From the NCBI GenBank assembly GCA_900318775.1, contig ONLY01000010.1, positions 5,620-69,619 of the forward strand: 64,000 nt of DNA, read 5' to 3'. Below are positions 1 to 10,027 of the stretch, in pieces (the first letter of the stretch is position 1; every line of letters begins with the position of its first letter). The position numbers and the translations under genes are program-made. This stretch comes from an uncultured Prevotellaceae bacterium. GTDB taxonomy: Bacteria > Bacteroidota > Bacteroidia > Bacteroidales > Bacteroidaceae. The notes under the pieces were generated by a model. The model had not been told where the DNA came from and ran no database searches. It saw nothing but the letters and a program-made list of their open reading frames with translations.

Positions 1-1400
1 AATGAGTTATTACATTGCCAAAAATCACCATATTTAGTATTTTCTTCATTATGATATAATACAAATGTAGGTTGATTACTAAAATGCCGCATAAAAGAAT
101 TAAGTCTGGCAGTTTTTATATCGTCAATATACGGACTGACGCAAACAAAAAAATTATTACAAGTTATAATACTATCGATAATTGATAGAAGGTGTTGGCT
201 ACTGTAATCATCAATGTCAAGTATATTTGAGAATAAATGAATTGTAAGCACATCACGTTGAACTTTTATATCGGAAGATGCCACATCATCCAACTTTTTG
301 CATACTGTTTTCAGTTTGCCATTTGTGGCAAATTTCCTGCAATGTAGGGCCGCTCTCTTCAGAACAATTTCTGATGGTTCAACCAACGTTATATAGTGAA
401 CGTCTAAAGAGTCGTATTTTTCCAATAAGGTGATAGTCGCCAATCCTTGTCCACATCCCCAATCCACTATATTTACTGGAGTGTCAAAATATTGAGGAAA
501 AGTTGACTCAAACGAACTAATAAGTTTTGCATAATGCATTTTACCATAGCGTTTCATATACTCAAACATTTCCTCTTCTGAATGTAATTGATCCACACCT
601 CGTCCATTGAGAATGCCGTTTGCTCTATCAACACTAATTTGACGAATTGATATGAAATTATTTGGTACACGAGAAAGTGCATCGCAATAATCAGTTCCTT
701 CTTCAATTAACAAGTTGTCTTCTGGATTGACTACAACAGAGCTGATTCTTGTGGTTAAAGTATCTATTTTCTCTTCAATTTGTCGAAATACTGATTGAGA
801 ATTAGATACATCAAGAAGAGAAATATCTTCTATTTGTTTGAGCCAATTGTATTCACCATTATTATTAAGATCACAAAATTTTTGTTTTGCTTCTGTTGCA
901 TAAACAATGTTCGTATTATAAACAATGTGACCATAATAATTAAGAAATGTTACCAGTGCTTTAGAAGGGTTGTCCTCTTCTTCAACAATTGCATCATTCA
1001 ATAATTCACATATTTCATCAAAGCGACCAACTAATTCTTCATTTGAAGATGGACGTGGAAAAAGGAACTTTAGAGCTGCAGTCATCCTCTTATTGATAAG
1101 AATGTCATTCCTTTGGATAATAGTCATTATGCGGGGAATACAACTATGCAAAGCGAATCTTTCACACAAGTCGAGAAGGATTAGAATAAAAGAACGATTT
1201 TCTACGGTTTGAAAGTCATAATGAGAAATGATGCTATTCTTAAGAAGAATTAATCGTTCAATATCATCCTTCTGTTGATATTGCGTTTGATATGGTGCAT
1301 TGAAGAAATCTTGGATAGTCAAGAAATTTCTTTCAAGACTATCCGCAAATGAAGCCACATCACTGGTTTCCTCGAAAAGAGTTTTAAATACTTCTTCCAT
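1..1400 (-). CDS. Partial CDS (C-terminus beyond the window): ~270-aa helical N-terminal region followed by a class I SAM-dependent methyltransferase-like domain
   Basis: My own translation of the minus strand from ATG at 1400-1398 (MEEVFKTLFEETSDV...) stays open to position 1. It is missing from the ORF track because no stop lies in the window. Motif I-like VDWGCGQG maps to ~445-468, followed by LVEPS (acidic end of beta-2) and IHLFSNILD. The start is 2 nt downstream of the preceding gene. Confidence 0.6.
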   Translation of the reverse strand, partial: MEEVFKTLFEETSDVASFADSLERNFLTIQDFFNAPYQTQYQQKDDIERLILLKNSIISHYDFQTVENRSFILILLDLCERFALHSCIPRIMTIIQRNDILINKRMTAALKFLFPRPSSNEELVGRFDEICELLNDAIVEEEDNPSKALVTFLNYYGHIVYNTNIVYATEAKQKFCDLNNNGEYNWLKQIEDISLLDVSNSQSVFRQIEEKIDTLTTRISSVVVNPEDNLLIEEGTDYCDALSRVPNNFISIRQISVDRANGILNGRGVDQLHSEEEMFEYMKRYGKMHYAKLISSFESTFPQYFDTPVNIVDWGCGQGLATITLLEKYDSLDVHYITLVEPSEIVLKRAALHCRKFATNGKLKTVCKKLDDVASSDIKVQRDVLTIHLFSNILDIDDYSSQHLLSIIDSIITCNNFFVCVSPYIDDIKTARLNSFMRHFSNQPTFVLYHNEENTKYGDFWQCNNS

Positions 1401-1402
1401 AA

Positions 1403-3037
1403 TTAAAACAGCTTACTATCTTGGCGTTTTTCTGCACGAAGAATGTAAATAATCAAATCTTCCGTTTTGCTCTGCCTGCCGACTTTGCAACCATATTGCT
1501 TTGCTAATTCTTTCAGCTCTTTAGATTTCAGTTTACATAATTCAATGATTTTTTTTGCATACTCTTCTTCGTTAAAACACGTGTTCTCCTGATTATTTGT
1601 TTGTAAAGAGAAAGTTACTGCGTTTTCCGGAATTGCTATCTCTTTATCTTTTAAAGATAATTGTTCCTTACACTTGTTTAGCTCTTTTTTTAGACGTAGT
1701 ACTTCTGTATCGTTCGTGTCTTTAAATGTCTGAATAGTTTCCTCGTATTCATATGATATCTCCTCTTTCACTAAATATGCAAAAGGTTTAAGAATTGTTT
1801 CAATGATTATTGACGAGAAATCATAGCCAAGAAAATTGACCTTATCTTTTTGCAGAAAAAATGCCAAACAGTTTTTCCACCATTCTTCGGAAAAAAGGAT
1901 TGCTTTTTTTTTATCACATACAATAGTATCAAGTATCTGATATTCTCCTCTCTTTGCTTTTCTACCCGTCAAAGTCTTTACCCAGGAATTGAACAAATCA
2001 AATTCCGTAGATACAATGTTATAGAAAGTGTACCTATAGATACTCTCTATTGTATAGTAGTCAAGCAAAGAATTAAGTCGGTATTTTACATCTTCCGTTT
2101 TATTATCCTTTCTATATTGGTTATTAAATGATGCGTAACCTCTATTATACCCGTAATAAAGAGCACAGCTTTCTTGATATCCTTGCTTGAGACTCGTAAA
2201 ATTGTTTAATATTAGTTCATCGATTTTATGGCGATGAGCTTCTTCACCAACTCCATAATCATATAGAACATAACAAAGATATACGCTGTTTTCAAGGTTA
2301 CTCGGGTCAATAACTTTTGTTAATTTGCTCTTACTGATAAATTGTTTTTTCTCTAAAGCTTCATTTTCTAGGGTTGCATAATCAACGACATGGTCTAGAA
2401 ACGTGGGATGATTATCAAAAACCTTATGAAACTTAGTATCAACACCAGAAATCATCGTCTTCTGACTTGCTATATAAGTGTTGAATTTAGAAAGCAAGTC
2501 AATATAATGAGCAGAATAATTGCATCCATCTTCATGAGCAGTCTTCATCAAGGCCATTGCACCCAATATGCGATTAAACTTGTCATATGATTTTTCTATT
2601 ATCTCTAATAATGGCACAATATTTTCAGGAACTTCGACACCGTTGGTATTTACATCATCAAATGTATTGTTGTTCGAATCAACTAAAGCATTTGGAATAA
2701 AAGCGGTCGAAAGATTAATATTAGAAATGGTTCTTTGTGATTGAGCAACATTTTTAAAATATATCCTTTTAATTCTAGATACAGGTAATGCGCTTTCATA
2801 CAAATAGAAACCTTTTTTTATGTCTACTAATGTTTTTTCTTCATCTGAACTTAAAACAAGTTGTAGACAGCAATCTGAGTCCATACACCCAAAATGATCA
2901 GTAAGCAAAATGAAATTTTCAAATTTGCTTTGAATGTCTGACAGCCTATTCCTATACAATGATGCAGGGAGGATACATGCTCGACCAAAAATCGATGCCA
3001 AAGATGTTGACGATATCGGATAATAATATGTTTTCAT
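1403..3037 (-). CDS. Hypothetical 544-aa protein: unassigned N-terminal and central domains, a coiled-coil segment and a C-terminal SAP/Rho-N-like helix-extended-helix
   Basis: Long ORF in an AT-rich context, 11 nt after the helicase stop. The tail KSKELKELAKQYGCKVGRQSKTEDLIIYIL matches the SAP/Rho_N pattern. It is preceded by the charged heptad-like LRLKKELNKCKEQLSLKDKE. I found no Walker or nuclease motif. Confidence 0.7.
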   Translation of the reverse strand: MKTYYYPISSTSLASIFGRACILPASLYRNRLSDIQSKFENFILLTDHFGCMDSDCCLQLVLSSDEEKTLVDIKKGFYLYESALPVSRIKRIYFKNVAQSQRTISNINLSTAFIPNALVDSNNNTFDDVNTNGVEVPENIVPLLEIIEKSYDKFNRILGAMALMKTAHEDGCNYSAHYIDLLSKFNTYIASQKTMISGVDTKFHKVFDNHPTFLDHVVDYATLENEALEKKQFISKSKLTKVIDPSNLENSVYLCYVLYDYGVGEEAHRHKIDELILNNFTSLKQGYQESCALYYGYNRGYASFNNQYRKDNKTEDVKYRLNSLLDYYTIESIYRYTFYNIVSTEFDLFNSWVKTLTGRKAKRGEYQILDTIVCDKKKAILFSEEWWKNCLAFFLQKDKVNFLGYDFSSIIIETILKPFAYLVKEEISYEYEETIQTFKDTNDTEVLRLKKELNKCKEQLSLKDKEIAIPENAVTFSLQTNNQENTCFNEEEYAKKIIELCKLKSKELKELAKQYGCKVGRQSKTEDLIIYILRAEKRQDSKLF

Positions 3038-3048
3038 AAATACATGGT

Positions 3049-4071
3049 TTATTCAACGACGTTATTTAATTGTGGAATATTGTTATTACTAAATAAATAC
3101 AAATTAGTTCTTGCCCTTGTCACAGCAACATAGAAATCGTTCCAATCTAAGACTTCAAATCTATTGCATAAATAATCCATTGAGCCAAAATCTGGAACAA
3201 GAACGGTATCAAATTCCAAACCTTTGGCAGACTTGAAGGTCGTAATGTGAACATTATCAATTGGAGGACAACCATTAGGGAACTCTTTCTGATCTTCATA
3301 ATAGAAACTATGTGCTATTTCCATTTCATCAAGAATATCGTGATATTCTTTAACTGTATTCTTAAACGGAAGTAGGATAGCTATATTATGAGTATCTGTC
3401 CTAAAAGTTTCGATTATTTCTTTAATTGCATCGTCTCGTTTGCTCCTGGCATTTTCATTAAACAAAGGATTACCATCTGTTACTATCAATGTGGGTTTTT
3501 CTCCAGGGTTGTTAGCCAATGCATCAAGAGTATTCTGCGGTATATAAGCGTTAGGAAAGGCAACACGAGCAAATGTCATAATGGCCAAAGTGCTTCTGAA
3601 ATTTCTATCAAGTACATATTCTACATTATTTTCAAATCGCTCTTCCAATTCTTCTTTAGTTGAAGAATGTTCAGGATAAAGAATCTGAGCATCATCTGCT
3701 CCATACGAAATGCTAAATCCAGAAATCTGGTCAAAGTATTCGGCGTCAAGGTCCTGTGCCTCATCTATTATAATTTCACTAAAATTCTCTCTTCTCTTAG
3801 GACGACCTGCATATGCAGAACGAACGTTCCTGGATGCTTCGGGATTTCTCAAACGACAACATTCAGACAAATATCTGGCTAAAGTTGTTGTATAAGTTAT
3901 AAGCAGACTTCTACTACCATTTCCATGGTTCGCAAGATGACGATAAAGCGAAACTACACTTTTTCCTGTACCTGGACCACCAGAAAGTGCAATTTGTTCA
4001 GTTTCATTAAGCGCTGCCTGTTGAGACAGTGTTAAATCATCAATGTTTGGTAATCTGAAATAGTATGGCAT
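3049..4071 (-). CDS. Minimal UvrD/Rep-like superfamily 1 helicase (340 aa)
   Basis: The full SF1 motif series is readable. Q-like LTLSQQAAL; I GGPGTGKS (nt 3958-3981); Ia LLITYTTTLARYL; II IIIDEAQD; III YGADDAQILY; IV LDRNFRST; V TTFKSAKGLEFDTVLV; VI YVAVTRARTNLYL. Confidence 0.85.
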   Translation of the reverse strand: MPYYFRLPNIDDLTLSQQAALNETEQIALSGGPGTGKSVVSLYRHLANHGNGSRSLLITYTTTLARYLSECCRLRNPEASRNVRSAYAGRPKRRENFSEIIIDEAQDLDAEYFDQISGFSISYGADDAQILYPEHSSTKEELEERFENNVEYVLDRNFRSTLAIMTFARVAFPNAYIPQNTLDALANNPGEKPTLIVTDGNPLFNENARSKRDDAIKEIIETFRTDTHNIAILLPFKNTVKEYHDILDEMEIAHSFYYEDQKEFPNGCPPIDNVHITTFKSAKGLEFDTVLVPDFGSMDYLCNRFEVLDWNDFYVAVTRARTNLYLFSNNNIPQLNNVVE

Positions 4072-4082
4072 AACTATATAAA

Positions 4083-4601
4083 TTAAAATACATCACCTGA
4101 AAAAGATTTGTCATTAAGATTGCGAGGATAGAAAGACAAATATAATTCGTCATATAAACCTAATCGAATTAGTGCATCGATGGCTTGATTTACTCCACTT
4201 TTTGCAGCCTGTTTATAGAGTTTAATCGCTCTATTCAAATCGCTTTTAATACCTTTGCCCTGTTCAAGAGCAACAGCATAGTTGTATTTCCCAAAAGGAT
4301 GCCCAGCAGCTGCGGCTTTTTGATAGTAGTGAACCGCTTTTTCATAATTAACTTCAATCCCATTGCCATAAAAATAGCTCACACCTAAGTTGTTATATGT
4401 CTCAGGGGTGGTGGGCATTCCACTTTCAACAATATACTCCCAGCACTCAATAGCCTCTGCAAACATTTGACTTCTTGCAAAATCTGTTCCAATATTGCTT
4501 ATCTCTATTACATCGCCATTCAGAGCTGCCTGCATTCTGTTTTCATCATAGTAAAAACAATTATAATAGTAGGCAAGTATTTCTTCTAAATTCTTTTTCA
4601 T
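4083..4601 (-). CDS. Sel1-like repeat (SLR/TPR-family) protein, no signal peptide
   Basis: Consecutive SLR units: YNNLGVSYFYGNGIEVNYEKAVHYYQKAAAAGHPFGKYNYAVALEQGKGIKSDLNRAIKLYKQAAKSGVNQA. The N-terminus MKKNLEEILAYYY is not hydrophobic. Confidence 0.85.
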   Translation of the reverse strand: MKKNLEEILAYYYNCFYYDENRMQAALNGDVIEISNIGTDFARSQMFAEAIECWEYIVESGMPTTPETYNNLGVSYFYGNGIEVNYEKAVHYYQKAAAAGHPFGKYNYAVALEQGKGIKSDLNRAIKLYKQAAKSGVNQAIDALIRLGLYDELYLSFYPRNLNDKSFSGDVF

Positions 4602-4608
4602 TTATTTA

Positions 4609-5676
4609 TTATTTCCCAGTTATGGTATCAGCATAGGGGTTTTCCTTATGTTTTTTCCAATTATTGATAGCCAATTCTTTGGATGCATTAGCATAACAAT
4701 ACTCACAAAGATGCGGACAGGTGTTATATTCACCTATATCTTTGGATGCCATACATTCACAGAATTGCCTTTGTCCGGGATCTTTCTTGTGGATACTGAT
4801 AAAGTATTTGTTGTTTGGCAGCAATATTGCTCCTTGTGGAAGTTCTGGAACTTCAAACAAAGATGGAGCAGGAACGTTCTCAACCTTCACCTTCATGAAG
4901 TCCATCAGTTCCTTATCATTCCATGCAAGTTTAGCAATAAGGTCGCCATCAACACATCGATTATGTAGAATTCCATATTTACCGATGTCTATCTTTTCAC
5001 CACAGGTTGCAAGTTGATATTTCCATCCTCTTTCCTTATTCATAATAGAAAGTTTTTGTGCAAATTCTTCCATCTGTTCAACCTCCCATTCTCGATACGG
5101 AATACCGTTTGTTTCCAGATTGTGCTTTACTTTTTTATACATAGCAATGTCTGCATAACTGAATACAAGCTTTTCTGTATAGTCTTTCAGTTGATCGCCA
5201 ATACTTTTTACTTTTACTAACAATTTTTCAACAGAAATATCATCAGTCAATATCATTGGGTCAAACCTCCAAATAACAGTCCCCTTGCCTAATTGCTCAA
5301 CAAGCATTTTGAAAGTTTCTATACGATTAGCAAGAGAAGGTACCTTTTCAAGTTTCTCTTGTTCGTAGTCATTTAAGGTGTATTGAATGTAACACTTAAT
5401 GTTTCGTTCCTTCAGTATGTGTAGATACGGCAACAAGGGACGAGGATTTTTTGACCAAAACACAATGAATCGTGTTTTCTTGTACGATACATAGCCTTTT
5501 ACACCATTAAACGGATTAGTCCATGCGGAATAACCCACCTTCAACCGATTGAAGAACCAATCGGCATAGAAGGCCGGAATATCCGTACTTCTGCTTGCGG
5601 AGACAATCATCGGCACCTGCATCTGTACCACTTCTCCATTTTCTTTCGGTAGATTCTCTTTATTCCAAGTTGCCAT
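4609..5676 (-). CDS. DUF1848-family protein (radical-SAM-like; Cys cluster at the C-terminus)
   Basis: N-terminal VSASRSTDIPAFYADWFFNRL, then NPFN, FWSKNPRP and RFDP. C-terminal FCECMASKDIGEYNTCPHLCEYCYAN contains CX3CX2C (C320, C324, C327; nt ~4696-4719). This is the signature I associate with Pfam DUF1848. Confidence 0.8.
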   Translation of the reverse strand: MATWNKENLPKENGEVVQMQVPMIVSASRSTDIPAFYADWFFNRLKVGYSAWTNPFNGVKGYVSYKKTRFIVFWSKNPRPLLPYLHILKERNIKCYIQYTLNDYEQEKLEKVPSLANRIETFKMLVEQLGKGTVIWRFDPMILTDDISVEKLLVKVKSIGDQLKDYTEKLVFSYADIAMYKKVKHNLETNGIPYREWEVEQMEEFAQKLSIMNKERGWKYQLATCGEKIDIGKYGILHNRCVDGDLIAKLAWNDKELMDFMKVKVENVPAPSLFEVPELPQGAILLPNNKYFISIHKKDPGQRQFCECMASKDIGEYNTCPHLCEYCYANASKELAINNWKKHKENPYADTITGK

Positions 5677-5721
5677 ATTTTTATGGGACTGTTCTTATTG
5701 GGGTTTGCCAAATTCTGGCCA

Positions 5722-5729
5722 CAAAGATA
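5722..5729 (-). promoter_or_regulatory. Bacteroidetes-type -7 promoter box (TATCTTTG) for the island operon
   Basis: Reverse complement of caaagata, ~45 nt upstream of the DUF1848 start. The same TAnnTTTG motif recurs upstream of most genes in the window. Confidence 0.5.
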
Positions 5730-5750
5730 TAAAAATAATTGCAAAACGAA

Positions 5751-5762
5751 GCAATATATTGC
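5751..5762. promoter_or_regulatory. Perfect 12-bp palindrome GCAATATATTGC with an extra ATTGC half-site at 5737-5741; possible operator
   Basis: Read directly from the sequence. It lies about where the -33 element of the island promoter would be. Confidence 0.3.
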
Positions 5763-6065
5763 AATTATCCGTATTTATTTATATTTTTTTCAAAAAAAGA
5801 CAGATTTTGGCAAGCCAAAGAGGTGTTTTTATCATATCCGTTCGAATTGGGTACAACTAATTACGATAGAATTAGCCATAGAAAACTCACTATAGGTTTG
5901 CTTCAAAGTGACATCGAAAGTGCATAACGGAGGGTTGACACTGGGATGTGTGAAAAGGGGTGAGGATAGAGTAATTGATTAAAATTATATCTTTATTATT
6001 ATATATAATATATAGATAATAAAAATTCTTTCCTCAATGAAATCCAAAAACCTTTATGTCAAGTC

Positions 6066-6089
6066 TGCAAAAGTGCAAAAGTGCAAAAC
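6066..6089. repeat. Tandem 8-bp repeat TGCAAAAG TGCAAAAG TGCAAAAC
   Basis: Read directly from the sequence. Further GCAAAA(A) words are scattered between 5738 and 6223. Confidence 0.6.
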
Positions 6090-6263
6090 CTGCGGAAATA
6101 AAAGATATAAGAACATAAATAAAAAACATGGAAAAGAATGGTCATGGAAGTTGTTCGATTCGCAAAAAATGTGTACCGTTGTAACAAAGTTGCAAAAATG
6201 ATATGAGGCAACAAAATTTGCGGCATAGCCAACGAGAAAAATTTTGTTAACTATGCTACGAAC

Positions 6264-6325
6264 ACAAGGAGCACTAAAGGAAGTGTAAAGGAAGAGTAAA
6301 GGAACACTAAAGGAGCACTAAAGGA
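6264..6325. repeat. Six direct repeats with an exact 11-bp period: one ACAAGGA plus five TAAAGGA, separated by 4-nt spacers
   Basis: Heptamers start at 6264, 6275, 6286, 6297, 6308 and 6319. The period is not a multiple of 3 and no ORF covers the array. Confidence 0.8.
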
Positions 6326-6393
6326 GGACTCTTGCAAGTACTTTGCCTTTTTCAATATTCGTCAGCATGCGCGGGTGTGGACTGTTTTTTACT

Positions 6394-6430
6394 AAAAAGA
6401 GGAAACTTGACTTGTGTGTCAAGCTTCCTC
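6394..6430 (-). terminator. Intrinsic terminator downstream of tRNA-His
   Basis: 13-bp arms GAGGAAACTTGAC (6399-6411) and GTCAAGCTTCCTC (6418-6430) with one mismatch, followed on the minus strand by a U-run (A-run 6394-6398 on plus). Confidence 0.6.
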
Positions 6431-6436
6431 TTTAAA

Positions 6437-6512
6437 GGGTGGAGGGTGGGACTCGAACCCACGACATTCAGAACCACAATCTGACGCTCTAACCAACTGA
6501 ACTACATCCACC
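6437..6512 (-). tRNA. tRNA-His (anticodon GTG) with encoded G-1 pairing to C73
   Basis: Hand-folded cloverleaf: anticodon stem TCAGA/TCTGA, loop TTGTGGT, T-arm GTGGG-TTCGAGT-CCCAC, D-arm GTTC/GAGC. There is one U6-C67 mismatch in the acceptor stem. CCA is not fully encoded. Confidence 0.88.
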
Positions 6513-6540
6513 ATGTAGGGGTGTTTCCCTTTTGCGAGTG

Positions 6541-6548
6541 CAAAGGTA
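6541..6548 (-). promoter_or_regulatory. -7 box TACCTTTG upstream of tRNA-His
   Basis: Reverse complement of caaaggta, ~30 nt upstream of the tRNA 5-prime end. Confidence 0.45.
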
Positions 6549-6665
6549 GGGAGTTTTTTTTGTTTGGCAAAATAAAAAGCGAAGAATTTTAAGAGAATCT
6601 CTCATTTTTCCTCGCTTTATGTGTTGTGGCCTGTGGTTAAGCCTCAAAAGAGGGGGTGTCAGGGG

Positions 6666-7544
6666 CTATTTGTAGAATTCCCTGCGACCTGCGCTGAGGG
6701 TGTTCTTCATCAGAGAACAGATGGTCATGGGGCCTACGCCACCCGGCACAGGAGTGATGAAAGAGCACTTGGGCGCCACATTCTCAAAATCGACGTCGCC
6801 ATTCAGGCGGAAACCTGATTTACGAGTGGCGTCTGGAACGCGTGTTGTGCCTACGTCGACTATAACAGCACCTTCCTTCACCATGTCTGCTGTCACAAAG
6901 TTTGGGCTTCCAATTGCGGCTATGATGATGTCCGCTTGCAGACATTCCTCTTTCAAAGTTTTTGAATGGCTGTGACAAACGGTAACTGTTGCATCGCCAT
7001 ACTGTTTCTGCATCATCAGTTGGGCCATGGGCTTGCCTACGATGTTGGAGCGTCCGAGAATGACGCATTTCTTTCCGCTTGTCTCGATGTTGTAGCGCTT
7101 CAGCAGGGTGATGATGCCCAGTGGGGTGGCCGAGATGTAGCAAGGGAGCCCAATGGCCATGCGTCCCACGTTGATTGGGTGGAATCCGTCCACGTCCTTG
7201 CGGTAGTCTATGGCTTCAATGATTTTCTGCTCGGAGATGTGCTTGGGAAGTGGAAGCTGTACGATGAAACCATCCACATCGGCGTCATTATTAAGCTTTT
7301 CCACTTGCTCCAGGAGAAAATCTTCGGTGATGTCTTCTTCAAAGCGGAGGAGGGTAGATGTGAAGCCGCAAGCCTCGCATGCCAAGACCTTATTCTTTAC
7401 GTAGGTCTCGCTGCCACCGTCGTGTCCTACAAGAATGGCTGCCAAATGCGGGCGCTTGCCACCAGCATCTACGATTCTCTTTACTTCTTCTGCAATTTCA
7501 GCCTTGATGGCTGTTGCTGTTGCTTTTCCGTCTATCAGTTGCAT
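6666..7544 (-). CDS. folD: Bifunctional methylenetetrahydrofolate dehydrogenase/cyclohydrolase
   Basis: 292 aa. [10 protein letters not shown]..., [25 protein letters not shown] and [10 protein letters not shown] are all FolD hallmarks. Confidence 0.95.
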
Positions 7545-7586
7545 TGCCTTGTGTTGTTGTGTAAGGTGAAACTTTATTCGTTGTGT

Positions 7587-8942
7587 TTAAAAGCGTGGCA
7601 TTCCGCCTTTCATTCCTTTCAAGCGCTGCATCTGCGCCATTGCCTGCGCCATCTTGGGGCTGGTCATCTGACGCATCATCTTGCGCATCTGCTCAAACTG
7701 TTTCGTGATGCGGTTTACTTCATCAATTGACACGCCTGCGCCTTTGGCAATACGCATTTTGCGTGACATATTGATGCACTCGGGATGCTCACGCTCATAG
7801 GGGGTCATCGAACCGATCATGGCTTCTACGGACTTGAAGGCATTGTCATCAATCTCAACATCCTTCAAAGCCTTGCCCACGCCCGGAATCATAGAAGCGA
7901 GGTCCTTGATGTTGCCCATCTTTTTGATTTGATTGATCTGTCCGAGGAAGTCGTTGTAATCGAACTTGTTCTTCGCAATCTTTTTTTCCAGGCGCTTGGC
8001 TTCCTCTTCGTCGAATTGCTGTTGGGCGCGCTCCACAAACGATACGATGTCGCCCATGCCCAGAATGCGGTCTGCCATGCGGTCGGGGTGGAACACGTCA
8101 AAGGCTTCCATCTTCTCGCCTGTACCTACAAACTTGATGGGTTTTGTCACTACGGTGCGGATGGAAAGTGCTGCACCGCCCCGTGTGTCACCGTCTAGCT
8201 TTGTGAGGATTACGCCGTCTATATCTAGACGCTCATTGAAGGTCTTTGCTGTGTTGACAGCGTCCTGACCGGTCATCGCATCCACCACGAGCAAAGTTTC
8301 ATTCGGATTGACGGCATTTTTGATTTGCTCGATTTGCTGCATCAGCTCTTCGTCAATCGACTGGCGTCCAGCTGTGTCGACAATCACTACGTCATATCCC
8401 TTTGCTTTTGCCTCGCTGATGGCGTTCTTCGCAACAGCAATTGGGTCTGTGGCACCTTCTTCGAGATAGCAAGGTACTTCCACTTGCTCAGCAAGAACAC
8501 GCAATTGCTCCATAGCTGCAGGACGGAAGGTGTCGCACGCAGCCAAGAGTGGTTTCTTGTGATTTTGTGTCTTCAGGCGCAAAGCCAGTTTGCCGGACAT
8601 GGTAGTCTTACCTGCACCATTCAAACCTGCCATCAGAATGACCGTGGGGTGTCCTGTCAAGTTTAGATCTGTTGCCTGTCCACCCATCAGTTGAGCCAAT
8701 TCGTCATGTACGATCTTGACCATCATCTGACCAGGCTTCACGGCTGTCAGCACATTCTGTCCCAGCGCCTTCTGCTTCACTGTATCTGTGAAGGTTTTGG
8801 CCACCTTGTAGTTTACGTCTGCCTCGAGGAGGGCTTTGCGCACGTCCTTCAGCGTTTCTGCCACATTGATTTCGGTGATTTTGCCTTCACCCTTCAGTAT
8901 TTTGAAAGACCGCTCAAGTCTTTCGCTCAAGTTTTCGAACAT
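7587..8942 (-). CDS. ffh: Signal recognition particle protein Ffh
   Basis: 451 aa. SRP54 G domain with GLNGAGKTT, DTAGR and TKLDGD, plus a Met-rich C-terminal M domain. Confidence 0.95.
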   Translation of the reverse strand: MFENLSERLERSFKILKGEGKITEINVAETLKDVRKALLEADVNYKVAKTFTDTVKQKALGQNVLTAVKPGQMMVKIVHDELAQLMGGQATDLNLTGHPTVILMAGLNGAGKTTMSGKLALRLKTQNHKKPLLAACDTFRPAAMEQLRVLAEQVEVPCYLEEGATDPIAVAKNAISEAKAKGYDVVIVDTAGRQSIDEELMQQIEQIKNAVNPNETLLVVDAMTGQDAVNTAKTFNERLDIDGVILTKLDGDTRGGAALSIRTVVTKPIKFVGTGEKMEAFDVFHPDRMADRILGMGDIVSFVERAQQQFDEEEAKRLEKKIAKNKFDYNDFLGQINQIKKMGNIKDLASMIPGVGKALKDVEIDDNAFKSVEAMIGSMTPYEREHPECINMSRKMRIAKGAGVSIDEVNRITKQFEQMRKMMRQMTSPKMAQAMAQMQRLKGMKGGMPRF

Positions 8943-8968
8943 ATATCTTGTCTAAATAAAATTTACAG

Positions 8969-9604
8969 TTACCCTTTACGTACTCCTTTATATATAAGGT
9001 ATACGATGATGGCTACCACAATGATGATAGCTGCCGCTCCAATAATGTGTGAGTAGTGCGCAATGATGTTGATGAGCTCTTGCTTGGGCATTGTGCTGTG
9101 GAAGACAGCACCGATTGCTACCAGAATGGTGTTCCAGACACCAGCTCCCAGGCACGTGTAAAGGCAGAATGATGCCAAATTCATCTTCGCCAAACCAGCG
9201 GGAATGCTGATGAGTTGGCGAATGGCAGGAATCATGCGCCCAATCAAGGTTGAAATGGCACCGTGTTTGTCGAAATATGCTTCCGCTTTCTCTACCTTTT
9301 CTCCATCAATTAAGCATATGTGTCCAAAACGACTATTTGCAAAAGCATATACGATGGGACGTCCGAGAGAGTAGGCGAGTGCGTAATTTACTAATGCGCC
9401 AACCAGTGCGCCTAACGTTCCGCACAGAATAATCATGGAGTAGGACATCTCCCCTGTCTCTGCCGCCATGTATGCCGCTGGAATCATGACTACTTCTGAC
9501 GGGAATGGTATAAATGAGCTCTCAATGGCCATAAACAGAATGACCCAACCGTAATTTAGGTTGTCAAGCGCTCCGTTGGTAAGATGAAGGATAATTTCTT
9601 CCAT
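8969..9604 (-). CDS. DedA-family membrane protein; start moved to the internal MEEIILHL
   Basis: Polytopic protein with a DedA-like core (FIPFPSEVVMIPAGY..., LIGRMIPAIRQLISIPAG). A TACCTTTG -7 box lies inside the longer ORF, 8 nt before the ATG at 9604, implying a near-leaderless mRNA. Confidence 0.8.
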   Translation of the reverse strand: MEEIILHLTNGALDNLNYGWVILFMAIESSFIPFPSEVVMIPAAYMAAETGEMSYSMIILCGTLGALVGALVNYALAYSLGRPIVYAFANSRFGHICLIDGEKVEKAEAYFDKHGAISTLIGRMIPAIRQLISIPAGLAKMNLASFCLYTCLGAGVWNTILVAIGAVFHSTMPKQELINIIAHYSHIIGAAAIIIVVAIIVYLIYKGVRKG

Positions 9605-9606
9605 AA

Positions 9607-9620
9607 CGGGTGCAAAGGTA
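9607..9620 (-). promoter_or_regulatory. Promoter core TACCTTTGCACCCG for the DedA-family gene
   Basis: Contains a TAnnTTTG box. An identical 14-mer occurs in the opposite orientation at 9758-9771. Confidence 0.5.
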
Positions 9621-9757
9621 CGAATTTCAAGCGAAAACAAAATAGAGAAAAAGAAAAATATGAGTTTATTTGGGCCCGAAAGCATGGCACATCAAATTTT
9701 TTTTCTTTCTGCCTCTATTTTTTTTCTCAAAAGTTTTGTTTATTCATAAGAACTCCC

Positions 9758-9771
9758 TACCTTTGCACCCG
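9758..9771 (+). promoter_or_regulatory. Promoter core TACCTTTGCACCCG driving the tRNA-Thr transcript
   Basis: TAnnTTTG box with a TTTG ~20 nt upstream, ~113 nt ahead of the mature tRNA-Thr 5-prime end. Confidence 0.5.
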
Positions 9772-9883
9772 CTAAACGAAATGGGTAAGTCCTATACGGC
9801 CAGCTCCCTTGGAATTCCCCCAGGGCTTGACCGCAGCAAGGGTACTCGGTTGTAGCGGCGCGATGTAGATCGCTTACCCACCC

Positions 9884-9957
9884 GCCTCTTTAGCTCAGTT
9901 GGCCAGAGCACGTGATTTGTAATCTCGGGGTCGTTGGTTCGAATCCGACAAGAGGCT
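9884..9957 (+). tRNA. tRNA-Thr (anticodon TGT)
   Basis: Hand-folded: acceptor GCCTCTT/AAGAGGC, D-arm GCTC/GAGC, anticodon loop TTTGTAA, T-arm GTTGG-TTCGAAT-CCGAC. One U29-U41 mismatch in the anticodon stem. CCA is not encoded. Confidence 0.85.
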
Positions 9958-9986
9958 CAACAATTCATCGTCTGATGAAAAAGATA

Positions 9987-10027
9987 ATCAAGGGAGAAAG
10001 CAGAGCGCTTTTTCCCTTGATTTATTC
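9987..10027 (+). terminator. Intrinsic terminator after tRNA-Thr
   Basis: Arms ATCAAGGGAGAAAG / CTTTTTCCCTTGAT followed by TTTATT. Confidence 0.55.

What the first reader, a model, noticed from the sequence alone, without database searches (positions are those of the whole stretch)
1..5729. AT-rich five-gene operon (DUF1848 radical-SAM-like, Sel1, minimal SF1 helicase, SAP-tailed orphan, methyltransferase-domain protein): candidate undescribed defence or nucleic-acid/nucleotide-modification system
Seen in the sequence: five consecutive minus-strand ORFs are separated by only 7, 11, 11 and 2 nt. One TAnnTTTG promoter box (5722-5729) precedes the first ORF, and I found no internal hairpin terminators. 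The whole block is far more AT-rich than the adjoining core genome and sits at the 3-prime side of tRNA-His. Motifs read from the translations are: (i) a DUF1848-type protein with a C-terminal CX3CX2C; (ii) a cytoplasmic Sel1-repeat protein; (iii) a 340-aa UvrD-like helicase core with motifs Q to VI; (iv) a 544-aa orphan with a coiled coil and a SAP/Rho-N-like DNA/RNA-binding tail; (v) a protein with a class I methyltransferase-like domain that continues past the window edge. Established knowledge: helicase plus methyltransferase plus accessory enzymes, packed into horizontally acquired tRNA-linked islands, is the usual look of anti-phage and restriction-modification-like systems (BREX, DISARM and Hma are examples). 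I know of no named system built around DUF1848 plus Sel1. Inference: this is a co-transcribed functional module, possibly a new immunity or modification system. No nuclease or other obvious effector is visible, and one may lie beyond the left edge.
Basis: partly seen in the sequence, partly recalled or inferred. Interest (0 to 1): 0.85.

Follow-up and report, generated by a model that had tools for sequence, protein, structure and literature searches.

The report
Helicase–ADP-ribosyltransferase–methyltransferase defence-island cassette
The five tightly packed genes are a real mobile cassette, kept in the same order in dozens of distantly related bacteria and often lodged among anti-phage genes; it most likely protects the cell by chemically tagging and untagging nucleic acid, but nobody has tested it.

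Summary
Five minus-strand ORFs (gaps 7/11/11/2 nt) lie in a low-GC island next to tRNA-His. The interpretation needs correcting. The 544-aa "orphan" matches Pfam 2CompART + 2CompARG (predicted ADP-ribosyltransferase and glycohydrolase). Its model resembles Tpt1/DarT at the N-terminus and the Rho N-domain at the tail.

In 46 genome loci the invariant colinear core is SF1 helicase → ART/ARG protein → 501-aa class-I methyltransferase-fold protein. DUF1848 precedes it in 32 of 38 loci where this can be judged. In five of the six others an AlkB-type dioxygenase fills that slot, and five loci have both. Sel1 is an occasional accessory.

The cassette moves as a unit: 90.6% nucleotide identity to a Parabacteroides MAG, ending exactly at the cassette ends. 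It sits inside BREX and type I R-M loci and beside AbiP2, an nSTAND3 gene (PADLOC PDC-S73) and MNT-HEPN. PADLOC v2 does not name it, and no paper in the searchable library describes it.

Best reading (0.5): a defence system in which the helicase exposes single-stranded nucleic acid, the ART and methyltransferase modify it, and AlkB/DUF1848 (and perhaps "ARG") reverse the marks. No enzyme activity or phenotype has been shown.

The parts
5722..5729 (-). Bacteroidetes-type -7 box candidate (TATCTTTG), 46 nt upstream of the DUF1848 start codon
   Evidence: Read. Its position fits a promoter, but the motif is not enriched in the window (53 observed against 38.9±6.5 expected) and five further copies lie inside the genes.
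4609..5676 (-). Gene 1: DUF1848 protein (355 aa), a predicted Fe-S, radical-SAM-like enzyme. It is a frequent first gene of the cassette.
   Evidence: Pfam PF08902 E=9e-88; PADLOC RTasDUF1848 1.7e-38. Seven invariant Cys, including C320-x3-C324-x-Y-C327-Y-A, across homologues of 31-59% identity. Present in 32 of 38 loci that can be judged.
4083..4601 (-). Gene 2: cytoplasmic Sel1/TPR-repeat protein (172 aa), an accessory adaptor found in a minority of cassettes
   Evidence: Pfam Sel1 2.6e-19. Present only in the window, L010, L020 and L069. dN/dS 0.43.
3049..4071 (-). Gene 3: minimal UvrD-like SF1 helicase (340 aa), an invariant core component
   Evidence: Pfam UvrD_C 1.2e-11, AAA_19 and Viral_helicase1. 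Weak partial PADLOC GajB and NERD+UvrD hits. Walker A K37, DEAQ and motifs IV-VI read. Lies upstream of ART/ARG in every locus with room.
1403..3037 (-). Gene 4: ART/ARG protein (544 aa), an invariant core component. ART domain: aa 3-119 (nt 2681-3031). "ARG" domain: aa 148-309 (nt 2111-2596). Coiled coil: aa 408-463 (nt 1649-1816). SAP/Rho_N-like tail: aa 490-540 (nt 1418-1570).
   Evidence: Pfam 2CompART 1.2e-32 and 2CompARG 1.7e-15. AF2 model pLDDT 82. Foldseek: Tpt1 7yw4 probability 1.0, DarT 7omx 0.63, Rho N-domain 0.95. 532 clusters at 50% identity in 1.84 billion representative proteins.
1..1400 (-). Gene 5: first 466 of 501 codons of a helical N-domain + class-I SAM-methyltransferase-fold + C-terminal Cys-cluster protein. 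It is an invariant core component and the last gene of the transferable cassette.
   Evidence: Full length comes from L002 and P0121. Motifs DWGCGQG, LIEPS and FSNILD. AF2 pLDDT 88. Foldseek probability 1.0 to class-I MTases, including TrmI m1A58, an RsmB-like protein, BioC, CmoA and KsgA. Lies downstream of ART/ARG in every locus with room.
6266..6325 (.). 11-nt tandem repeat (5.5 copies) at the tRNA-proximal edge of the island. This is where homology to the other island copies breaks.
   Evidence: L002 has 84 nt more of the array. L003 homology starts at L002 6635 and L001 homology at L002 6743.
6437..6511 (-). tRNA-His(GTG). It flanks this copy of the island but not all copies.

Best explanation
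The block is one copy of a horizontally mobile, multi-enzyme conflict (anti-phage or anti-MGE) cassette. Its invariant core is an SF1 helicase, a protein that combines a Tpt1/DarT-like ADP-ribosyltransferase domain, a conserved middle domain ("ARG") and a SAP/Rho_N nucleic-acid-binding tail, and a class-I SAM-methyltransferase-fold protein.

Proposed mechanism (inferred, not shown):
1. The helicase loads on or unwinds invader nucleic acid, or replication or transcription intermediates, and exposes single strands.
2. The tail tethers the ART domain, which uses NAD+ to ADP-ribosylate that strand.
3. The methyltransferase adds an N-methyl (alkyl-type) lesion. Together these marks block replication or translation of the invader.
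4. The first gene of the cassette limits or reverses the damage on host molecules. It is DUF1848 in anaerobic Bacteroidales, an AlkB dioxygenase in aerobic relatives, and both in some. The ARG domain is proposed to do the same for ADP-ribose.
5. Sel1 is an optional protein-protein adaptor.

Shown here: the gene content, its conservation and colinearity, its mobility, its defence-island context, and the fold and domain assignments. Inferred: the substrates, the writer/eraser logic and the defence phenotype.
For: (1) Conserved synteny. Hel-ART/ARG-MTase is colinear in all 46 genome loci wherever the contig allows. These loci span many Bacteroidota families and four other lineages. ART/ARG identity falls to 27-30% in the most distant ones.

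(2) Discrete mobility. Nucleotide identity of 90.6% to a Parabacteroides MAG starts 67 nt before gene 1 and ends at the stop of gene 5. The island occurs in at least 3 flanks at 99.9% identity. GC is 0.33 against 0.50 in the core genes. dN/dS is 0.09-0.43.

(3) Defence context.
- The cassette lies between PglX and PglZ/BrxL in L041, with the same downstream pair in L043.
- It lies between type I HsdR and HsdM in L019.
- It sits next to AbiP2 RT (L022), mad3/8-like (L029) and Upx-like (L044) genes.
- It sits next to Abi_2 (L056), WYL (L001, L049), the nSTAND3 gene matching PADLOC PDC-S73, and MNT-HEPN in the window's own island.

(4) Enzymology.
- Pfam 2CompART and 2CompARG score above their curated cut-offs.
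- The best structural neighbours of the N-domain are the nucleic-acid-directed ART-fold enzymes Tpt1 and DarT, and the tail resembles the Rho N-domain.
- The MTase fold has intact SAM motifs.

(5) An AlkB with HxD and RxNLTFR motifs (PF13532, E 1e-32 to 1e-35) is in the cassette in 10 loci. It replaces DUF1848 in 5 of them. A base-dealkylating enzyme paired with a methyltransferase points to a nucleobase N-alkyl mark.

(6) Independent links.
- The same MTase family is fused to an SF1 helicase next to DUF1848 in L065 (hhalign 99.65%).
- An MTase-Hel-X-DUF1848 variant occurs in L066.
- Macro-Sir2-DUF1848 are co-directional in a Roseburia plasmid.
- An ADP_ribosyl_GH gene follows the cassette in L059-61.

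(7) Decayed copies with split ORFs (L029, L040) fit the turnover expected of defence genes.
Against: - No phenotype, no biochemistry and no modification data exist.
- The "ARG" assignment rests only on the Pfam label. I found no similarity to classical ADP-ribosylhydrolases: hhalign against a PF03747 protein gave probability 0.1%, a PDB profile search found nothing and Foldseek found nothing.
- The ART assignment has only modest structural support (Foldseek E=1e-2 to Tpt1; DarT probability 0.5-0.6). I could not map catalytic residues.
- The methyltransferase's nearest structures include small-molecule and protein MTases (BioC, CmoA, NTMT1), and it lacks a (D/N/S)PP(Y/F) motif, so a nucleic-acid substrate is not established.
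- The fold of DUF1848 was not determined here, and Pfam Radical_SAM did not hit it.
- Defence-island context is circumstantial.
- A fused writer and eraser in one polypeptide needs a regulatory switch for which I have no evidence.
Confidence: 0.5

Rival explanations
1. A nucleic-acid damage-reversal (repair or counter-attack) module rather than an attacker. AlkB/DUF1848, the ARG domain and the helicase strip alkyl and ADP-ribosyl adducts that phage or toxin enzymes put on host DNA or RNA. This would be analogous to ALKBH3 working with the ASCC3 helicase (from my own knowledge). The ART and MTase domains would mark or seal repaired sites, as Hen1 does in Pnkp/Hen1 RNA repair (also from my own knowledge).
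For: AlkB is a repair enzyme and is in the cassette in 10 loci. A helicase paired with a dealkylase is a known repair logic. Tpt1 and Hen1, both RNA-repair enzymes, are among the structural neighbours of the ART and MTase domains. An extra ADP_ribosyl_GH follows the cassette in L059-61.
Against: The invariant genes are the two predicted writers plus the helicase. The predicted erasers, AlkB and DUF1848, are the dispensable ones: L022 has neither. The patchy, horizontally moving distribution and the insertion inside BREX and R-M loci are typical of immune cassettes, not of housekeeping repair.
Confidence: 0.2
2. A protein-directed switch. The ART and ARG domains reversibly ADP-ribosylate a protein (a host or phage protein, or the helicase or MTase itself) in the manner of DraT/DraG. 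The helicase would then be the actual effector or sensor.
For: Most characterised ARTs modify proteins (established knowledge). A writer-plus-eraser pair is the DraT/DraG logic. Sel1 repeats are protein-interaction modules. Protein N-terminal MTases (NTMT1) are among the Foldseek neighbours of the MTase.
Against: The SAP/Rho_N tail, the helicase partner, the AlkB partner and the Tpt1 and DarT top structural hits all point to nucleic acid. Sel1 is absent from most cassettes.
Confidence: 0.12
3. An R-M-like self/non-self system. The methyltransferase marks host DNA epigenetically, and the helicase plus ART attack unmarked DNA.
For: The MTase has a 300-aa helical N-domain that could serve as a target-recognition module.
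Against: There is no DNA amino-MTase or C5-MTase catalytic motif and no hit to PADLOC MTase models. A cassette-encoded AlkB would erase rather than maintain a mark. In L041 and L019 the cassette is inserted inside complete BREX and type I systems that already have their own methylases.
Confidence: 0.1
4. Fortuitous adjacency of unrelated genes in an AT-rich island, with no joint function.
For: The promoter motif and the absence of terminators are not statistically informative on their own.
Against: The same order and orientation recur in 46 loci, down to 27% identity. The MTase and helicase are fused in L065. The cassette transfers with precise boundaries.
Confidence: 0.02

Closest known systems
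DarTG (DarT DNA ADP-ribosyltransferase toxin + DarG macrodomain antitoxin; anti-phage TA system)
   Same: It pairs a predicted nucleic-acid-directed ART-fold writer with a predicted eraser. DarT is among the best structural neighbours of the N-domain. It occurs in defence islands.
   Different: There is no DUF4433/DarT Pfam hit and no macrodomain. Writer and putative eraser are fused in one polypeptide. The cassette is obligatorily linked to an SF1 helicase and a methyltransferase-fold protein, with a DUF1848 or AlkB gene in addition.
Tpt1/KptA (RNA 2'-phosphotransferase, ART fold)
   Same: It is the top Foldseek match of the N-terminal domain (7yw4, probability 1.0, TM-target 0.58). Both are small ART-type domains acting (or predicted to act) on nucleic acid with NAD+.
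   Different: There is no sequence-level match. The R-H-R-R tetrad was not identified. The domain architecture and operon are entirely different.
Pfam PF22546/PF22545, the "2-Component system" ART and ARG domain families
   Same: The window protein is a bona fide member by HMM score (113 and 58 bits against a cut-off of 27).
   Different: These entries name domains only. I found no text in the searchable library that describes them or the helicase-MTase-DUF1848/AlkB operon. The functions are predictions.
UG25/UG35 class 1 UG/Abi reverse-transcriptase systems (MTase-RT fusion with DUF1848, or with a UvrD-like helicase; PMC9226505)
   Same: The partner set is the same: a methyltransferase domain, DUF1848 and/or a UvrD-like helicase. 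The window's DUF1848 hits PADLOC RTasDUF1848 (1.7e-38), and the helicase hits RTasHel and RTasNERD-Hel weakly.
   Different: There is no reverse transcriptase in the cassette. The ART/ARG protein occupies the role of a variable effector. The MT501 protein hits no PADLOC DRT model.
Gabija (GajA OLD nuclease + GajB UvrD-like helicase)
   Same: The helicase gives weak partial GajB hits (best 2.4e-15 over about 60 residues).
   Different: There is no GajA/OLD nuclease. The helicase is a 340-aa minimal core and matches only fragments of the roughly 600-aa GajB models.
AlkB oxidative dealkylation repair (with helicase coupling, as in ALKBH3-ASCC3)
   Same: Relatives of the cassette encode an authentic AlkB next to the helicase.
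   Different: AlkB is absent from the window itself. The cassette also encodes predicted writers (ART, MTase) and behaves as a mobile defence-island element.

Membership tests
Pfam 2CompART/2CompARG protein family | HMM match above the curated gathering score for both domains | tested here: met
   PF22546 113 bits and PF22545 57.9 bits, cut-off 27 for both.
ADP-ribosyltransferase (ART) fold superfamily | ART-fold structure similar to solved ARTs | tested here: inconclusive
   AF2 model N-domain against PDB: Tpt1 7yw4 E=1e-2, probability 1.0, TM-target 0.58; DarT probability 0.54-0.63. This is consistent but weak.
ADP-ribosyltransferase (ART) fold superfamily | Catalytic H-Y-E or R-S-E (or Tpt1 R-H-R-R) residues in place | not testable with these tools
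   No model coordinates or structural alignment were available. Invariant polar residues (D34, Q36, D55, C56, C57, E66, R88) could not be mapped to a triad.
Classical ADP-ribosylhydrolase (DraG/ARH3, PF03747) | Sequence or fold similarity of the middle domain to ARH enzymes | tested here: not met
   No PF03747 hit. hhalign against the PF03747 protein of L003 gave probability 0.1%. PDB profile search found nothing. No ARH appears among the Foldseek hits.
DarTG | DarT (DUF4433) toxin domain and macrodomain/NADAR antitoxin | tested here: not met
   Neither domain was found in any of the five or six proteins.
Radical SAM enzymes (for DUF1848) | CX3CX2C cluster motif with an aromatic residue before the last Cys | tested here: met
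   C320-PHL-C324-EY-C327 is invariant in diverse homologues, together with four further invariant Cys.
Radical SAM enzymes (for DUF1848) | Match to a Radical_SAM profile or (partial) TIM-barrel fold; SAM cleavage | tested here: inconclusive
   No PF04055 hit at E≤0.1. No PDB sequence relative. hhalign to one radical SAM protein gave probability 5%.
UvrD-like SF1 helicases | Walker A/B and helicase motifs III-VI | tested here: met
   GPGTGKS, DEAQD, NFRS, KGLEFD and VAVTRAR are in the translation. Pfam UvrD_C, UvrD_C_2 and AAA_19 score above their cut-offs.
Class I SAM-dependent methyltransferases | Rossmann-like fold with motif I GxGxG and an acidic residue at the end of β2 | tested here: met
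   DWGCGQG and LIEPS are invariant. Foldseek gives probability 1.0 to many class-I MTases. Pfam hits are below cut-off.
DNA N6A/N4C or C5 methyltransferases (R-M type) | (D/N/S)PP(Y/F) or PC/ENV catalytic motifs; hits to R-M MTase models | tested here: not met
   The post-β4 motif is FSNILD. There are no PADLOC or Pfam DNA-MTase hits.
Gabija | GajA (OLD-family ATPase-Toprim nuclease) adjacent to GajB | tested here: not met
   No GajA hit was found. GajB matches are partial.
BREX / DISARM / Hma | PglZ+BrxC+PglX; DrmA/B/C; or the Hma helicase-methylase-ATPase set | tested here: not met
   No PADLOC hits to these components in the window's genes. In L041 and L043 the cassette is merely inserted inside a BREX locus.
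UG25-type DRT (MTase-RT + DUF1848) | Reverse transcriptase fused to a methyltransferase | tested here: not met
   No RVT domain occurs in the cassette. Only the DUF1848 accessory model matches.

The most novel reading that the evidence does not exclude
DUF1848 is an Fe-S/radical-SAM-type enzyme that reverses N-alkyl (methyl, perhaps ADP-ribosyl) adducts on nucleic-acid bases without O2. It would be the functional counterpart of the O2-dependent dioxygenase AlkB, and the cassette would be a defence system that combines two reversible nucleic-acid marks (ADP-ribose and methyl).

Basis:
- DUF1848 and AlkB occupy the same first slot of the cassette. There are 27 DUF1848-only, 5 AlkB-only, 5 both and 1 neither.
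- AlkB-only cassettes are in lineages I know as aerobic (Salegentibacter, Pontibacter, Fluviicola, Cytophagales). DUF1848-only cassettes are mostly in anaerobic Bacteroidales.
- DUF1848 is always found beside a methyltransferase, in five different architectures.
- A flavodoxin gene lies next to it in P. distasonis.

Caveat: DUF1848 also occurs in an oxygenic cyanobacterium.
Probability: 0.25. Interest if true: 0.9.

Novelty: new variant of a known kind. Interest (0 to 1): 0.72.

Why it matters
If the cassette is an immune system, it would add an architecture to the small class of defences that work by covalently modifying nucleic acid rather than cutting it (DarTG is the paradigm). Here two different predicted marks, a motor protein and dedicated reversal enzymes sit in one operon. 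It is common in human-gut Bacteroidales, where few defence systems have been tested.

It also gives the first testable functional context for three families that lack experimental data: DUF1848, 2CompART/ARG, and the DWGCGQG/FSNILD methyltransferase family. The AlkB-DUF1848 slot exchange yields a concrete hypothesis for how organisms living without oxygen could reverse base alkylation, which the O2-dependent AlkB cannot do.

Tried and rejected
1. Literature. Four look-ups of likely source papers by id failed. Nothing describes this system. DUF1848 is mentioned only as the partner of UG25 RTs.

2. PDB sequence and profile searches for DUF1848, ART/ARG, the ARG domain and MT501 found no meaningful relatives. 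The only hit was a weak MTase match for MT501.

3. The ARG domain against a classical ARH by hhalign found no relationship.

4. I asked whether the 769-aa unknown protein in the ART/ARG slot of the L066 variant is a divergent ART. Its N-terminal 32 residues look similar, but hhalign gives probability 1% and hmmsearch E=0.3, so this is not significant.

5. DUF1848 against one radical SAM protein by hhalign gave probability 5%.

6. ART/ARG against plasmid and phage collections gave no match. There was one hit among 2.9 million IMG/VR contigs, so the cassette is essentially chromosomal.

7. Foldseek of ART/ARG against viral structures gave only weak, uninformative hits.

8. Rfam on 1-10000 found no RNA element in the operon or its leader.

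9. The sigma-70 promoter scan and the TAnnTTTG count are at or near chance and do not by themselves support or refute a single transcript.

10. I rejected SLFN_AlbA_2 (554 aa) as a core member. It is absent from L010 and from nearly all other loci, although an AlbA_2 protein also ends the L066 variant.

Full report
**1. The observation**

The window's first 5.7 kb carries five consecutive minus-strand ORFs:
- 4609-5676 (355 aa)
- 4083-4601 (172 aa)
- 3049-4071 (340 aa)
- 1403-3037 (544 aa)
- 1-1400 (466 codons, open at the window edge)

They are separated by 7, 11, 11 and 2 nt. GC is 0.31-0.39 here against 0.47-0.53 in the adjoining folD/ffh region. tRNA-His(GTG) lies at 6437-6511 on the minus strand, so the block is on its 3' side.

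The TATCTTTG box at 5722-5729 (-) is real and lies 46 nt upstream of the first ATG. TAnnTTTG is not enriched in the window, however (53 found against 38.9±6.5 expected), and five more copies lie inside the genes. Terminator-like hairpins are at chance level. The motif evidence is therefore compatible with one transcript but does not prove it. Rfam finds no RNA element in the leader. The "Bacteroidales small SRP" RNA at 9776-9883 confirms a Bacteroidales host.

**2. What the five proteins are**

Gene 1 is a full-length DUF1848 protein (PF08902, E=9e-88) with the C-terminal C320-x3-C324-x2-C327. Across homologues of 31-59% identity from Bacteroidales, a cyanobacterium, a Firmicute and a 735-kb phage, seven cysteines are invariant: C225, C241, C306, C308, C320, C324 and C327, with the signature C-x3-C-x-Y-C-Y-A. 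I infer that this fits a radical-SAM-type [4Fe-4S] cluster plus an auxiliary cluster. No Radical_SAM profile hit and no PDB relative was found.

Gene 2 is a 172-aa Sel1/TPR protein.

Gene 3 is a minimal UvrD-like SF1 helicase with all core motifs (Walker A K37). Its PADLOC hits to GajB and NERD+UvrD models are weak and partial.

Gene 4 is not an orphan. It matches Pfam 2CompART (aa 3-119, E=1.2e-32) and 2CompARG (aa 148-309, E=1.7e-15), the "2-Component system" ADP-ribosyltransferase and ADP-ribose glycohydrolase domains.
- An AlphaFold2 model built on 21 homologues (pLDDT 82, pTM 0.70) was searched against the PDB.
- The N-domain best matches the ART-fold RNA 2'-phosphotransferase Tpt1 (7yw4, probability 1.0, E=1e-2), followed by the DNA ADP-ribosyltransferase DarT (probability 0.5-0.6).
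- The C-terminal tail matches the Rho N-terminal domain (probability 0.95).
- A long helix (aa 408-463) separates the two regions.
- Homologues carry Pfam SAP, Rho_N or HeH hits in the tail.
- The middle "ARG" domain is strongly conserved (GYNRGY, LDYYTIES), but I found no similarity to classical ADP-ribosylhydrolases. Its eraser role therefore rests only on the Pfam label.

Gene 5 is 501 aa in full, so only 35 codons lie beyond the window.
- It has a helical N-domain of about 300 aa, a class-I SAM-MTase fold with invariant DWGCGQG, LIEPS and FSNILD, and a C-terminal Cys/His cluster.
- Foldseek gives probability 1.0 to many class-I MTases. These include tRNA m1A58 TrmI, an RsmB-like protein, KsgA, HEN1 and METTL5, but also BioC, CmoA/B and NTMT1.
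- It lacks DNA-MTase catalytic motifs and hits no PADLOC MTase model.

**3. Extension beyond the window**

Metagenome contigs that encode the identical ART/ARG protein show what lies past gene 5. After a 30-nt gap comes a 554-aa SLFN_AlbA_2/HATPase_c_4 protein. An XRE-type HTH follows, then a 749-aa REase-nSTAND3 protein that matches PADLOC candidate PDC-S73 end to end (E=7.6e-141), an ISL3 transposase and an MNT-HEPN pair. The surroundings are thus a defence island.

The same island at 99.9% identity is joined to three different upstream flanks. One is folD/ffh/tRNA-His, as in the window. The second carries dynamin-like and WYL genes (L001). The third carries ADP_ribosyl_GH and NrtR genes (L003). 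The last two lack tRNA-His. The breakpoints fall at an 11-nt tandem repeat (window 6266-6325) whose copy number differs between the window and L002.

**4. Is it a module?**

A scan of one genome per species returned 46 loci that encode an ART/ARG relative. Searching their six-frame ORFs with the window's proteins gave the following:
- The helicase lies immediately upstream, and the MT501 protein immediately downstream, of ART/ARG in every locus where the contig allows it. All are on the same strand, abutting or overlapping.
- DUF1848 is the gene before the helicase in 32 of the 38 loci where this can be judged.
- Sel1 occurs only in the window, L010, L020 and the single IMG/VR hit, L069.
- The SLFN protein is not conserved.

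The hosts are mostly Bacteroidota of many families, plus a Methylococcaceae, a Gracilibacteria, a Chlorobiaceae and a MAG labelled Clostridia. ART/ARG identity falls to 27-30% in the most distant loci.

Homology to the Parabacteroides MAG L010 (90.6% nt) begins 67 nt before gene 1 and ends at the stop codon of gene 5. This delimits a transferable five-gene unit. Between these two copies all five genes have dN/dS of 0.09-0.43. Two loci, L029 and L040, carry decayed copies with split ORFs. Fortuitous adjacency is excluded.

**5. The unexpected sixth component**

Clustering the flanking ORFs revealed a protein of about 210 aa that abuts the cassette's 5' end in ten distant loci. It is an AlkB-type 2OG-Fe(II) dioxygenase (PF13532, E 1e-32 to 1e-35) with HxD and RxNLTFR motifs.

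In L027, L037, L041, L042 and L045 it precedes DUF1848. In L038, L043, L046, L048 and L053 it takes DUF1848's place. Only L022 has neither.

The AlkB-only hosts (Salegentibacter, Pontibacter, Fluviicola and a Cytophagales MAG) belong to lineages I know as aerobic. The DUF1848-only hosts are mainly anaerobic Bacteroidales. That lifestyle assignment is background knowledge and was not tested here.

**6. Other contexts of DUF1848 and of the MTase family**

- A fecal contig, L065, has DUF1848 followed by an 880-aa protein. In that protein an MT501-type MTase domain (hhalign 99.65%, E=5e-25) is fused to a NERD/UvrD-type SF1 helicase.
- L066 has MTase, a helicase related to the window's (E=9e-16), a 769-aa unknown protein, DUF1848 and an AlbA_2 protein, in that order.
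- A Roseburia plasmid has macrodomain "protein-ADP-ribose hydrolase", Sir2 and DUF1848 in one direction.
- A P. distasonis replicon has a flavodoxin gene on the opposite strand just upstream of DUF1848, which is followed by a DNA/RNA non-specific endonuclease gene.
- A Planktothrix plasmid has AlkB two genes away.
- In a 735-kb phage DUF1848 sits between two methyltransferases.
- The literature notes DUF1848 as the partner of UG25 methyltransferase-RT fusions, and a UvrD-like helicase as the partner of UG35 (PMC9226505).

DUF1848, a methyltransferase and an SF1 helicase therefore form a recurring trio, with a variable fourth enzyme: ART/ARG, an RT or an unknown protein.

**7. Defence context of the cassette elsewhere**

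- In L041 the cassette lies between PglX (PADLOC E=0) and PglZ + BrxL. L043 has the same downstream pair.
- In L019 it lies between type I HsdR and HsdM.
- It sits next to an AbiP2 RT (L022), a mad3/mad8-like ATPase (L029) and an Upx-like protein (L044).
- It sits next to Abi_2 and transposase fragments (L056-58) and WYL-WCX regulators (L001, L049).
- In L059-61 a classical ADP_ribosyl_GH fragment follows the cassette.

ART/ARG is absent from the plasmid and phage collections and occurs once in IMG/VR. The family comprises 532 clusters at 50% identity among 1.84 billion representative proteins, which makes it rare but widespread.

**8. Mechanism**

The best-supported reading is a mobile conflict system that acts on single-stranded nucleic acid.
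- The helicase exposes or tracks the strand.
- The SAP/Rho_N-tailed ART uses NAD+ to ADP-ribosylate it.
- The MTase adds an N-alkyl-type mark.
- AlkB and/or DUF1848, and possibly the "ARG" domain, remove such marks from host molecules or reset the system.

Shown: composition, conservation, mobility, context and folds. Inferred: substrates, writer/eraser logic and phenotype. Confidence is 0.5.

Rivals:
- A repair or counter-attack module (0.2).
- A protein-directed DraT/DraG-like switch (0.12).
- An R-M-like self-marking system (0.1).
- Chance adjacency (0.02).

**9. Comparison with known systems**

In logic the cassette works most like DarTG: a nucleic-acid ART with a reversal activity, in defence islands. 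It is not a member, because it has no DUF4433 domain and no macrodomain.

It shares partners with UG25/UG35 DRTs but has no reverse transcriptase. Its helicase only fragmentarily resembles GajB, and there is no GajA. It is not BREX, DISARM or Hma.

PADLOC-DB v2.0.0 has no model for ART/ARG or MT501. The Pfam domain names show that the ART/ARG protein has been noticed computationally. I could find no description of the operon in the searchable library. Papers outside that library cannot be excluded, and newer DefenseFinder or PADLOC releases could not be checked.

**10. Verdict**

Novelty is a new variant of a known kind, namely covalent-modification defence. Interest is 0.72.

The most novel reading that the evidence does not exclude is that DUF1848 is an O2-independent functional counterpart of AlkB. 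I give this a probability of about 0.25, and it would be of high interest if true.

Noticed in passing
window 6266-6325 (and L002 6699-6782): An 11-nt tandem repeat (consensus AAGGAACACTA, 5.5 copies) lies between tRNA-His and the operon. The otherwise 100% identical contig L002 carries 84 nt more of it. Homology to the two alternative island flanks (L001, L003) breaks at or next to this array, so it may be a recombination or assembly hotspot.
   Followed up: partly
L001, L002, L003 (island copies; outside the window): The same ~15-kb island at 99.9% identity is joined to three different upstream flanks: folD/ffh/tRNA-His; dynamin-like GTPases + WYL; ADP_ribosyl_GH + Nudix NrtR. Either the island moved recently or the metagenome assemblies are chimeric at the repeat.
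   Followed up: partly
L002 13174-21449 (left of the window edge): Downstream of the cassette lie SLFN_AlbA_2/HATPase_c_4 (554 aa), an XRE HTH, REase-nSTAND3 (matching PADLOC candidate PDC-S73, E=7.6e-141), an ISL3 transposase and an MNT-HEPN pair. The MNT-HEPN pair is flanked by 112-nt direct repeats of 91% identity (L002 20558-20669 and 21457-21568).
   Followed up: partly
L065 7558-11218: DUF1848 is followed by an 880-aa fusion of the MT501-type methyltransferase domain with a NERD/UvrD SF1 helicase, and preceded by a trypsin-like protease and a 1062-aa unknown protein. This looks like a related but different system. The record is labelled "Bacteriophage sp., UNVERIFIED".
   Followed up: partly
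L066 3233-10585: A variant operon: MTase (mad2-like), SF1 helicase, a 769-aa protein with no Pfam or PADLOC hit, DUF1848, and SLFN_AlbA_2/HATPase_c_4/Fic-like_C. The unknown protein sits where ART/ARG sits in the window's cassette. Its N-terminus faintly resembles the ART N-terminus, but not significantly.
   Followed up: partly
L064 4322-6942 (Roseburia sp. 831b plasmid): Macrodomain protein-ADP-ribose hydrolase, Sir2 and DUF1848 are consecutive and co-directional. This is a second, independent association of DUF1848 with an ADP-ribosylation writer/eraser pair.
   Followed up: no
L067 5410-9393 (735-kb uncultured phage LR756501): A short (255-aa) DUF1848 that keeps all seven Cys lies in a huge phage genome between a C-methyltransferase and an FkbM-family methyltransferase.
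   Followed up: no
L029 8962-13069 and L040 8908-13138: Decayed cassettes: the helicase and MT501 genes are split into two or three ORFs, while DUF1848 and ART/ARG remain intact.
   Followed up: no
L056-L058, L023, L028, L035 (just downstream of MT501): A small (~111 aa) protein with a faint TerB-like match recurs directly after the cassette in several loci. It may be another accessory gene.
   Followed up: no
window 9776-9883: A Bacteroidales small SRP RNA (Rfam RF04183, 115 bits) lies immediately upstream of tRNA-Thr. It confirms the taxonomic placement of the window.
   Followed up: no
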